NCBI RefSeq assembly: GCF_009914755.1
Contig: NC_060929.1
DNA: 64,000 bases
Source of the DNA: the human T2T-CHM13v2.0 reference genome, Homo sapiens
Strand: one strand, 5' to 3'
Shown: one piece after another, positions 47,403 through 49,527 of the stretch
How the letters are laid out: each line of letters starts with the position of its first letter
How positions within the stretch are numbered: position 1 is the stretch's first letter
The notes under the pieces: model-generated
Told to the model about the DNA's origin: nothing
Seen by the model: the letters and a program-made list of their open reading frames with translations, nothing else
Database searches by the model: none
Program-made: the position numbers and the translations under genes

Positions 47403-47663
47403 ACTTTGACACTTTTCAGCTGAGGTTTAGTTTTCTTATCTGTAACATGTGGATAATATTAACCCTGCCCTTATAGCATTGTGTGATTTAACTGTGCCAA
47501 AGCATATAGTCTTGGCAGTACAAGTTGACACATAGTTGTTCAATAAATGCCATCCATTATTAAGAGTAATGCACAAAAGGCATAGAGAAAGCATGTTGTT
47601 TGTCAAGTAATTTCATTCCATGACAAAGGGCAATTAAATTTAACTTATTTTTCCTTTTGTTGG

Positions 47664-47762
47664 AATGGAGAAACACCATTCTTTCTGAGTGTTGAAGGAG
47701 GTCATGAAGAGTGCAGCAAAGTGCTGCTGACAGCAGGAAGTGACACCAACATTCCAAATAAA
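47664..47762 (+). pseudogene. ANKDD1B: silenced ankyrin-repeat exon of ANKDD1B (NGETPFFLSVEGGHEECSKVLLTAGSDTNIPNK); acceptor GG instead of AG
   Basis: 99 nt, phase 0, stop-free, ankyrin consensus; donor gtatgt intact; pyrimidine tract intact but followed by tGG|. Confidence 0.85.
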
Positions 47763-49527
47763 GTATGTGTTCCAGACCATGTTCACTCATGCAGTGGGAA
47801 GGAGACTTAAAATGTTCTTTGGAAACACTGGTCCTACATTGATCCACTCACTGGTACTTTAGAATTAATATTTATAATATGCTTTGTTTTTGGTAAGAAT
47901 TAATGATTTACCTCTAATATTCCCCAGTTACTGTGTCCTCAAAAGCAATGCCATTCTTTCTATTCTTTTGGGGAAGGAATAATTGAAAATGGGGCAAAAT
48001 GAGCAAGTACTTGTCACTTCTTAGAAACAGACACTCTATTCTACTTTGTTTTTTCATAGCAACTAGTGCACGCTTGGCTTATACAGAGAAGACGCTGAAA
48101 AAAAAGTTTATTGTGTGAAAGCTCAAGTGGTCAGCCTGGTGCAGGAAGAAGGAAGGATGGTGCCTTCCTCTAAATGCAGAATACTTTTGTATGTAGTCAT
48201 TGTGCTAAGAACCTTTGAAACTTTTGAGACTGTGTTATTATTTTTATTTTTTTAGATCACAAAAATAGAATTTGGAAAAGTTAAGGAAATCATTCAGAAT
48301 CATACAACTAGTCAATAGCAGTGCAAGGATTCAAACTAATGTCTGACACCAGTGCCTCAGCTTTTAACCCCTGCAATGGCTTTGTCTTCAGATGGTTTAG
48401 TTTCTTTTTCTGTTTTTCTAATTAATTGTAATGAAAACTCATGACAAAAAATTTGAATAGCACCAAAGGGTATATGATAAAAAAGTGTCTTACTCCAACC
48501 CCACATCGCAATTTTACTCCCCAGAACTAACATCCTTAATAGTTTATTTAGTCTTCCAGGAATTTTCCATGAATCCACATGGAAAATGTAATTAAATCCA
48601 TACACATATATATACCAACACTGTATAAACAGTAGCACAGTATATAATATATGCTGCTCTGCACCTTGGTTTCTTTTGATTGCCAATATATTTTAGAGAT
48701 CTTTATATCCACACAATATATAAACAATTTCTTTTCAACAAGTACAAATTTAAACACGCAAGAATAAATTCCCAATCAAGAATAAAGTCCCAAACTGGCA
48801 TGTTTGATACCCTGTATTCTGCTGGTGGGAGTCTATATTTGTATAATCTTTCGAAAAGCAATTTGTCACTTTCCTTTTAACCACACATGGAAAATTATGT
48901 TAAGGAAATAATTTAAAAGGCAGAAAGCTAGCTGCATGCATTCAGATAGATGATAAAGTTAGCTCCAATAGCCAAGAACTAGATACAACATATACGTGGA
49001 ATGAAAGGTAGGAGAAGGCTGAAAGAAGGTTTGGTGCATCTACTTGGAAAATTATGTAGCTGTTAAAAATTATAGTGATAAATACTAAAAATATGTTGCA
49101 ATATTGAACATGTTAATCATAGAACACTAATTGAAAAAATATAGTATAGTAAATATTAATATAATATTGGATTTATATATACATGCACAGGGATTGTGAG
49201 AGAGGAAAATCAAAGTAGTGTGAGTTGATTCCCACTGAAGTTGCAAGGTTATTGATGCAATAAATAAACACAAAGTTAAGAATTCATGGGAGGTGGGAGG
49301 AGCCAAGATGGCCGAATAGGAACAGCTCCGGTCTACAGCTCCCAGCGTGAGCGACGCAGAAGACAGGTGATTTCTGCATTTCCATCTGAGGTACCGGGTT
49401 CATCTCACTAGGGAGTGCCAGACAGTGGGCGCAGGCCAGTGTGTGCGCGCACCGTGCGCGAGCCGAAGCAGGGCGAGGCATTGCCTCACCTGGGAAGCGC
49501 AAGGGGTCAGGGAGTTCCCTTTCCGAG

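What the first reader, a model, noticed from the sequence alone, without database searches (positions are those of the whole stretch)
47636..47768. Hidden ankyrin-repeat exon of ANKDD1B switched off by an AG>GG acceptor change
Seen: 47664-47762 is exactly 99 nt and stop-free. It reads NGETPFFLSVEGGHEECSKVLLTAGSDTNIPNK, a full ankyrin repeat (G-x-TP, G-H, LL-x-x-G-x-D-x-N) with the same size, phase 0 and register as exons 3, 4 and 6-9. It has a good donor (AAA|gtatgt), a branch-like tttaac, a pyrimidine tract and about 35 nt free of AG, but 47662-47663 read GG. The next AG (47669-70) would shift the frame, so there is no simple rescue. It is too short for the ORF track. Inference: an ancestral exon lost by one substitution, shortening the ankyrin stack by one repeat without a frameshift. 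The intact frame suggests a recent loss, possibly lineage-specific or still polymorphic. Whether it has been described before cannot be judged here.
Basis: partly seen in the sequence, partly recalled or inferred. Interest (0 to 1): 0.9.

Follow-up and report, generated by a model that had tools for sequence, protein, structure and literature searches.

The report
Lost ankyrin exon in human ANKDD1B
Intron 7 of human ANKDD1B still holds an intact 99-base exon for one ankyrin repeat that gorilla, monkeys, rodents, birds and lizards all use, but humans cannot splice it in because its acceptor reads GG instead of AG.

Summary
Window 47664-47762 is a 99-nt stop-free ankyrin repeat (Pfam Ank 25.3 bits, cut-off 21.1). 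It has a GT donor, a pyrimidine tract and a branch-like site, but GG where the acceptor AG should be.

It is the orthologue of a real exon. The peptide is 32/33 identical to a segment of gorilla, orangutan and macaque ANKDD1B models, lying exactly between the exon 7 and exon 8 equivalents. It is present in 108 of 127 ANKDD1B cluster representatives, including marsupials, birds and reptiles. It is one of the most conserved repeats, with 13 invariant columns of 33.

No human protein holds it, and human models join exon 7 directly to exon 8. So the loss is in-frame, removes one repeat, and dates after the gorilla split.

Three things are not shown. The base in chimpanzee or any ape could not be read, because no primate DNA was available. 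There is no evidence on polymorphism. There is no RNA evidence.

The intact frame does not indicate a recent loss (P about 0.95-0.98 under neutrality). Human ANKDD1B also carries three substitutions at deeply invariant sites and a common nonsense allele (PMC11576641), so the gene looks to be eroding. This is a new member of a known kind, of moderate interest.

The parts
47664..47762 (+). Relic exon 'eX': 99 nt, phase 0, one complete ankyrin repeat. It is the orthologue of the exon between exons 7 and 8 in other amniotes.
   Evidence: sequence, frame; Pfam Ank 25.3 bits; 32/33 identical to gorilla, Pongo and macaque, flanked by the exon 7 and exon 8 peptides; collinear hit of the 561-aa monkey protein, residues 267-302.
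47662..47663 (+). GG where the 3' splice-site AG is required. This is the only visible defect of the exon.
   Evidence: All nine annotated coding exons checked have AG. That the ancestral base was A is inferred, not read.
47639..47661 (+). Branch-like tttaac (47639-47644) followed by the pyrimidine tract ttatttttccttttgtt. The acceptor context is otherwise intact.
   Evidence: There is no AG between 47629 and 47663.
47763..47768 (+). Donor gtatgt, the same intronic hexamer as the donor of exon 7.
47669..47670 (+). First AG downstream of the branch site. If used, it gives a 92-nt out-of-frame exon with a stop after 5 codons, which would act as a possible low-level poison exon.
   Evidence: The -3 base is G and purines separate it from the pyrimidine tract, so it is probably weak (inference).
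47745..47747 (+). Codon ACC (Thr, repeat position 28). This is the only residue at which the human relic differs from all orthologues, which read I, V, A or L.
   Evidence: 59 distinct orthologous peptides: I 43, V 14, A 1, L 1; codon place.
42857..42955 (+). Annotated exon 7 (...[11 protein letters not shown]), the upstream neighbour of eX in orthologues.
   Evidence: Hub table.
60213..60311 (+). Annotated exon 8 ([14 protein letters not shown]...), the downstream neighbour of eX in orthologues. It is joined directly to exon 7 in human proteins.
   Evidence: Hub table.

Best explanation
Window 47664-47762 is a formerly coding exon of ANKDD1B. It encoded one of eleven ankyrin repeats, sitting between today's exons 7 and 8. 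Every ankyrin exon of the gene is one repeat long (99 or 105 nt) and phase 0. On the lineage to humans, after the split from gorilla, the acceptor AG became GG; an A>G change at 47662 is inferred. Without an AG the spliceosome cannot define the exon, so exon 7 is joined to exon 8. The protein loses exactly 33 residues in frame (561 to 528 aa, eleven repeats to ten). The relic has since drifted neutrally and carries one substitution at a buried hydrophobic position. Shown here: the orthology, position, conservation and use of the exon in other species, its absence from human models, and the GG. Inferred: the ancestral AG, that GG is the cause rather than a later decay, and that the change is fixed.
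For:: the translated segment finds 43 proteins with E<=0.001 among 44 candidates. All are mammalian and nearly all are named ANKDD1B. Fifteen catarrhine entries (gorilla, Pongo, macaques, Cercocebus, Rhinopithecus) are 97% identical (32/33). None is human.

in 12 of the 14 proteins fetched, the peptide sits between ...[14 protein letters not shown] and LNISSLQ-type sequence, which are the human exon 7 and exon 8 equivalents. The other two are isoforms that skip a neighbouring exon.

108 of 127 cluster representatives hold eX. Scores fall cleanly into two groups, at least 22/33 or at most 14/33. Holders include marsupials, birds, lizards and a turtle.

eX has 13 invariant columns of 33 in 36 amniote orthologues, against 7 for exon 8.

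the 561-aa monkey protein maps exon by exon and collinearly onto human chr5. eX is the only segment that is not annotated.

human isoform X2 reads ...INEMNELNISS..., a direct exon 7 to exon 8 join.

Hub table: none of the 6 RefSeq transcripts has an exon at this place.

the paralogue ANKDD1A keeps ten 99/105-nt AG...GT ankyrin exons collinear with e3-e11 including the eX slot, so the longer stack is the ancestral layout.

human has 3 deviations at columns invariant in 34 non-primate amniotes. Gorilla, Pongo, Cercocebus, macaque and gibbon each have 0, which points to relaxed constraint in humans.

PMC11576641 (passage seen) lists ANKDD1B as a polymorphic pseudogene whose loss-of-function allele rs34358 has frequency 0.507.
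Against: No ape or other orthologous DNA could be read, so the AG in species that include eX is an inference from their gene models. Those models are themselves predictions.

19 of 127 orthologue representatives also lack eX. They include the only gibbon model and one Pongo isoform. The exon may therefore already have been skippable, or those models may have been built on the human one.

No RNA-seq, population or archaic-genome data were available. Low-level use, a segregating A allele, or use of the cryptic AG at 47669-70 are not excluded.

The chimpanzee and bonobo state is unknown. No Pan-named cluster appeared, and clusters at 90% identity hide their members.
Confidence: 0.85

Rival explanations
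1. The exon was already an optional cassette in the primate ancestor. Humans lost only the long isoform, and the GG may be later neutral decay rather than the cause.
For:: eX-less models occur in 17 non-human representatives, among them Pongo X4, Nomascus, Marmota flaviventris, Loxodonta and Puma. Several of these sit beside eX-bearing models of the same or a sister species. Other 99-nt ankyrin exons (e3, e4, e6+e7, e8, e10, e11) are likewise skipped in predicted isoforms of macaque, gorilla and others.
Against: eX is among the most conserved repeats (13 invariant columns). All six Macaca fascicularis and all four gorilla representatives seen hold it. Several eX-less entries come only from UniRef and may be projections of the human model; that is my inference and was not tested.
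Confidence: 0.12
2. The exon is not fully dead in humans. An A allele may still segregate, or the segment may enter some transcripts through the cryptic AG at 47669-70 and act as a poison exon that triggers decay.
For:: the donor, pyrimidine tract and branch site are intact. The first AG after the branch site would give a 92-nt exon with a stop after 5 codons. Only one human assembly was read.
Against: None of the 6 RefSeq transcripts (hub table) and no human protein (0 of 43; two human representatives lack eX) includes any part of it. The cryptic AG has G at -3 and purines in front of it. Searches for ANKDD1B with sQTL found 0 papers.
Confidence: 0.1
3. It is a chance open frame that merely looks like an ankyrin repeat, or a stray duplicated fragment that was never an exon.
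For: The segment is short (33 codons). A home-made HMM of the other repeats of the family did not detect it.
Against: It is 32/33 identical to an ape exon and lies in the collinear place. Only 1 of 268 intron frames hits Ank. The only 100% match in the whole human genome is the segment itself.
Confidence: 0.01

Closest known systems
Human transcriptomic conserved deletions (htCONDELs), e.g. HMMR exon 4 (bioRxiv 10.64898/2026.09.16.752114; abstract and passages seen)
   Same: Conserved protein-coding sequence is removed from human transcripts by a change in splicing, and the DNA itself is not deleted.
   Different: Those events were defined from RNA of human-chimpanzee hybrid cells and are often partial. 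Here the acceptor AG is gone, the loss is probably complete, the chimpanzee state is unknown and no RNA was examined. ANKDD1B occurs 0 times in that main text, and its tables could not be seen.
ANKDD1B as a polymorphic pseudogene (rs34358 nonsense allele, frequency 0.507; PMC11576641, passage seen)
   Same: It is the same gene, and it is another sign that ANKDD1B is under weak constraint in humans.
   Different: That lesion is a segregating stop codon in the death-domain part of the gene. This one is a splice-site loss that removes one ankyrin repeat in frame. CHM13 carries the Trp codon at the QWSG site; that this site is rs34358 is my recollection.
Paralogue ANKDD1A (chr15 of the same genome)
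   Same: It has the same one-repeat-per-exon layout: ten 99/105-nt AG...GT ankyrin exons collinear with e3-e11. Its sixth exon shares the Cys17 and Ser26 that are invariant in eX.
   Different: All ten exons have AG acceptors. Identity of the sixth exon to eX is only 11/33 and is not the reciprocal best (14/33 to e7), so repeat-by-repeat orthology is only suggestive.
Exon skipping caused by mutation of the 3' splice-site AG (textbook mechanism in human genetic disease; my own knowledge, no call)
   Same: A single change in the invariant AG abolishes exon definition, and a symmetric exon is skipped in frame.
   Different: Here the change appears to be carried in the reference human lineage rather than being a rare disease allele.

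Membership tests
Ankyrin repeat (Pfam PF00023) | Score at or above the curated gathering cut-off | tested here: met
   25.3 bits against 21.1. The score is 22.4 bits when the whole 74-aa open frame is given.
Ankyrin repeat (Pfam PF00023) | Full 33-residue unit matched end to end, with the G-x-T-P start, the G-H turn and the LL-x-x-G-x-D-x-N tail | tested here: met
   Profile positions 1-33 of 33 are matched. G2, T4, P5, G13, L21, G25 and N29 are invariant in 59 orthologous peptides and are present in the human segment.
Orthologue of the ANKDD1B exon between exons 7 and 8 ('eX') | High identity to the exon of close relatives | tested here: met
   32/33 to gorilla, Pongo, macaque and Cercocebus.
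Orthologue of the ANKDD1B exon between exons 7 and 8 ('eX') | Collinear place, same length and same phase | tested here: met
   The hit lies at residues 267-302 of the 561-aa protein, between the exon 7 and exon 8 hits. The segment is 99 nt and phase 0 like its neighbours.
Functional U2-type exon in human | AG at the 3' splice site | tested here: not met
   GG at 47662-47663.
Functional U2-type exon in human | GT donor, pyrimidine tract and branch-like site | tested here: met
   Donor gtatgt, tract ttatttttccttttgtt and tttaac, read by eye. No splice-site scoring program was available.
Functional U2-type exon in human | Presence in human transcripts or proteins | tested here: not met
   0 of 6 RefSeq transcripts (hub table). 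0 human entries among 43 eX-bearing proteins. Both human representatives lack it. RNA-seq was not available.
htCONDEL (human versus chimpanzee splicing loss of conserved coding sequence) | The sequence removed is conserved coding sequence | tested here: met
   13 invariant columns of 33 across 36 amniote orthologues.
htCONDEL (human versus chimpanzee splicing loss of conserved coding sequence) | Chimpanzee allele includes the sequence and the human allele does not | not testable with these tools
   No Pan DNA, protein or RNA could be reached. Searches show no Pan-named cluster.

The most novel reading that the evidence does not exclude
The acceptor loss is fixed and specific to humans, with chimpanzee and bonobo still including the exon. 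It would then be a complete, single-base 'transcriptomic deletion' of one of the most conserved repeats of ANKDD1B, and the first step of a decay that continues today with the roughly 50% nonsense allele. The human reference protein (ten repeats) would differ in scaffold geometry from that of every model organism (eleven repeats). That would matter for interpreting the 5q13 lipid, diabetes and migraine association signals and any mouse model of them.
Probability: 0.5. Interest if true: 0.55.

Novelty: new member of a known kind. Interest (0 to 1): 0.45.

Why it matters
ANKDD1B lies in a much-studied association region and carries a common nonsense allele, yet its function is unknown. The finding shows that the human reference protein lacks a whole repeat that gorilla, monkeys, rodents, birds and reptiles keep under strong constraint. 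This has three consequences:
- Animal orthologues are not structural equivalents of the human protein.
- The gene appears to be under relaxed constraint in humans.
- Pipelines that project human annotation onto other genomes cannot see such exons (my inference).

It is also a clean, directly testable case of conserved coding sequence lost from the human lineage through a single splice-site base. In the searches made, no paper describes it. These were: ANKDD1B alone (85 papers, 25 listed); with 'human-specific' (1); with 'sQTL' (0); with 'chimpanzee' (3); and with 'splicing' (17). Only listings were seen, plus passages of PMC11576641 and PMC6034262.

Tried and rejected
- **Representative search.** The whole-library search with the 33-aa peptide was swamped by long multi-repeat ankyrin proteins, because scores are summed over 7-28 stretches. 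It said nothing about orthologues.
- **Home-made HMM.** A model of the nine other repeat types found the seven annotated ankyrin exons but not eX (1.7 bits). It does not generalise and was replaced by the Pfam control.
- **Chimpanzee and bonobo.** No Pan-named cluster appeared. Clusters at 90% identity hide their members and no tool lists them. No primate DNA collection is on hand.
- **Structure prediction of the 561-aa and 528-aa forms.** The tool accepted no jobs, so no model was made.
- **Multi-term paper search.** It was badly framed with min_terms 2, and the 25 papers listed, of 7,847 that matched, did not mention ANKDD1B.
- **Rfam on 46500-49000.** 0 matches.
- **Search for 'one repeat per exon'.** 0 papers.
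- **Rescue acceptors.** In-frame open alternatives exist at AG 47584-85, 47590-91 and 47710-11. They have only 5-6 pyrimidines in the 20 nt before them. The first two would add 24-26 junk residues and the third would keep only half a repeat. All were rejected as realistic acceptors.

Full report
**Observation.** Window 47664-47762 is 99 nt without a stop and reads NGETPFFLSVEGGHEECSKVLLTAGSDTNIPNK.
- It is preceded by tttaac (47639-47644), a pyrimidine tract and then GG at 47662-47663. It is followed by gtatgt.
- Annotated exons 3, 4, 6, 7, 8 and 9 are all 99 nt, phase 0 and one ankyrin repeat long. Each is flanked by AG and GT.
- The curated Pfam Ank model matches the peptide over all 33 positions at 25.3 bits, against a cut-off of 21.1.
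- As a chance control, I sent all 268 stop-free frames of at least 33 codons in intron 7, both strands, to Pfam. Only the frame holding this segment hits Ank.
- A home-made HMM of the other nine repeat types did not find it (1.7 bits). I take this as a weakness of that model, which recognised only the types it was built from.
- The only 100% match in the whole genome is the segment itself. No Rfam family matches nearby.

**What it is.**
- Translated with seven upstream codons to reach the tool's minimum length, the segment finds 43 proteins among 44 candidates. All are mammalian and nearly all are named ANKDD1B. None is human.
- Fifteen catarrhine entries (gorilla isoforms X3-X5, Pongo X1, macaques, Cercocebus, Rhinopithecus) are 32/33 identical.
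- In 12 of the 14 fetched proteins the peptide lies exactly between the equivalents of human exon 7 (...[10 protein letters not shown]) and exon 8 (LNISSLQ...). The other two are isoforms that skip a neighbouring exon.
- The 561-aa Cercocebus protein maps onto human chromosome 5 exon by exon and in order. This segment is the only unannotated piece.
- Human isoform X2 joins exon 7 directly to exon 8.
- A second search with the gorilla protein listed the best 120 of 812 hits. Across the 127 ANKDD1B cluster representatives from both searches, 108 hold the repeat. Scores separate cleanly, at least 22/33 or at most 14/33. Holders include marsupials, birds, lizards and a turtle.
- In an alignment of 36 full-length amniote orthologues the repeat has 13 invariant columns of 33. 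That is as many as the best-conserved repeats and almost twice exon 8's 7.
- The paralogue ANKDD1A on chromosome 15 has ten AG...GT ankyrin exons of 99 or 105 nt, collinear with e3-e11 including this slot. The longer stack is therefore the ancestral layout. Repeat-by-repeat orthology with the paralogue is only suggestive (11/33 identities, with Cys17 and Ser26 shared).

**Mechanism.**
- The donor, pyrimidine tract and branch-like site are intact. The single visible defect is GG where AG is required.
- Neighbouring AGs give no usable rescue. AG 47627-28 gives a 134-nt out-of-frame exon. AG 47669-70 gives a 92-nt exon with a stop after five codons. The in-frame options lack a pyrimidine tract.
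- The exon is therefore skipped, and because it is symmetric the protein loses exactly one repeat (561 to 528 aa). PMC6034262 (passages seen) counts ten repeats in the human protein, so the ancestral protein had eleven.
- That the ancestral base was A is inferred from orthologue models that splice at exactly this boundary. No primate DNA could be read with these tools.

**Timing.**
- Gorilla, orangutan and macaque models keep the exon, so the loss falls on the human lineage after the gorilla split. Whether chimpanzee and bonobo share it is unknown.
Only 10 of 297 possible single-base changes make a stop. At 0.6-1.6% lineage divergence the frame stays open with probability 0.95-0.98 (the divergence figures are general knowledge).
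- The relic shows one amino-acid change, Thr at repeat position 28 (codon 47745-47747). All 59 distinct orthologous peptides have I, V, A or L there. This fits drift after inactivation but proves nothing by itself.

**Context.**
- I took the 158 columns that are invariant in 34 non-primate amniote orthologues. The human protein deviates at 3 of the 127 it covers (A96V, A341V, D417G in 561-aa numbering).
- The other primates compare as follows: gorilla X3 0/144, Pongo 0/158, Cercocebus 0/158, macaque 0/143, gibbon 0/145, Saimiri 1/151 and lemur 4/158.
- Gorilla X5 shows 8 deviations, but these come from an alternative C-terminal reading, not from substitutions.
- PMC11576641 (passage seen) lists ANKDD1B among polymorphic pseudogenes, with the rs34358 nonsense allele at 0.507. 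CHM13 carries Trp at the QWSG site; that this is the rs34358 site is recalled.
- Together these suggest relaxed constraint on the gene in humans.

**Against, and open.**
- Nineteen of the 127 representatives lack the repeat. Two are human. The other seventeen are Nomascus, Pongo X4, Mandrillus, both Rhinopithecus species, Cebus, Prolemur, Otolemur, Sciurus, Marmota flaviventris, Choloepus, Equus przewalskii, Catagonus, Puma, Trichechus, Loxodonta and Hippopotamus.
- Several of these have an eX-bearing model in the same or a sister species. Other ankyrin exons are also skipped in predicted isoforms. The exon may therefore have been skippable before it was lost, or those models may follow the human one.
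- All orthologue evidence rests on predicted proteins.
- There are no RNA, population or archaic data.

**Comparison and novelty.**
- The event belongs to a known kind: lineage-specific exon loss through a splice-site change.
- The closest named class is the 'human transcriptomic conserved deletions' of bioRxiv 10.64898/2026.09.16.752114 (abstract and passages seen). That main text does not mention ANKDD1B, and its tables were closed.
- None of the ANKDD1B literature searches turned up a description of this exon.
- I rate it a real, well-supported and apparently undescribed case of moderate interest.

Noticed in passing
window 49284-55388 (+), about 1.5 kb downstream of the relic exon in the same intron: A full-length L1 element lies in sense orientation. 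The ORF1 frame 50091-51212 is open and has all three L1 ORF1 Pfam domains. The ORF2 frame 51252-55103 (endonuclease plus reverse transcriptase) is interrupted by one in-frame stop. It looks young. Its subfamily and its presence in apes were not examined.
   Followed up: partly
window 23970-23972 (exon 2) and 63124-63126 (exon 9): The human protein reads Val (GTT) at two columns that are Ala in all 34 non-primate amniote orthologues and in gorilla, Pongo, macaque, Cercocebus and gibbon. A third such change, D417G, is seen in human isoform X2 outside the window. Whether these are fixed or polymorphic is unknown.
   Followed up: partly
window 32721-33029: The 105-nt intron between exons 4 and 5 is open in frame, so retaining it adds 35 residues. 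The same retained-intron form appears in human X2, Pongo X1 and Saimiri X3 models.
   Followed up: no
proteins P0003-P0044 and P0195-P0278 (table): Predicted isoforms in macaque, gorilla, camel, otter, ground squirrel and others each skip one or two of the 99-nt ankyrin exons (e3, e4, e6+e7, e8, e10, e11). The gene's symmetric one-repeat exons appear to be freely skippable, at least in gene models.
   Followed up: partly
L011-L013 (G000 C15:62726671-62754028): ANKDD1A has ten AG...GT ankyrin exons of 99 or 105 nt. One of them, at C15:62743422-62743520, was found only by the Pfam scan and not by tblastn with the ANKDD1B protein.
   Followed up: partly
L008 (G000 C5:76147700-76148300): The death-domain exon of CHM13 reads ...IRAIEEQWSG with the Trp codon intact. 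The single TAG reported inside that match is the acceptor region just upstream, not a nonsense allele.
   Followed up: yes
P0042 (Tupaia, 1335 aa) and P0043 (Camelus ferus, 866 aa): These two database models fuse DNA polymerase kappa domains (PF00817, PF11799) to ANKDD1B. They are probably read-through mis-predictions across the adjacent POLK and ANKDD1B genes.
   Followed up: no
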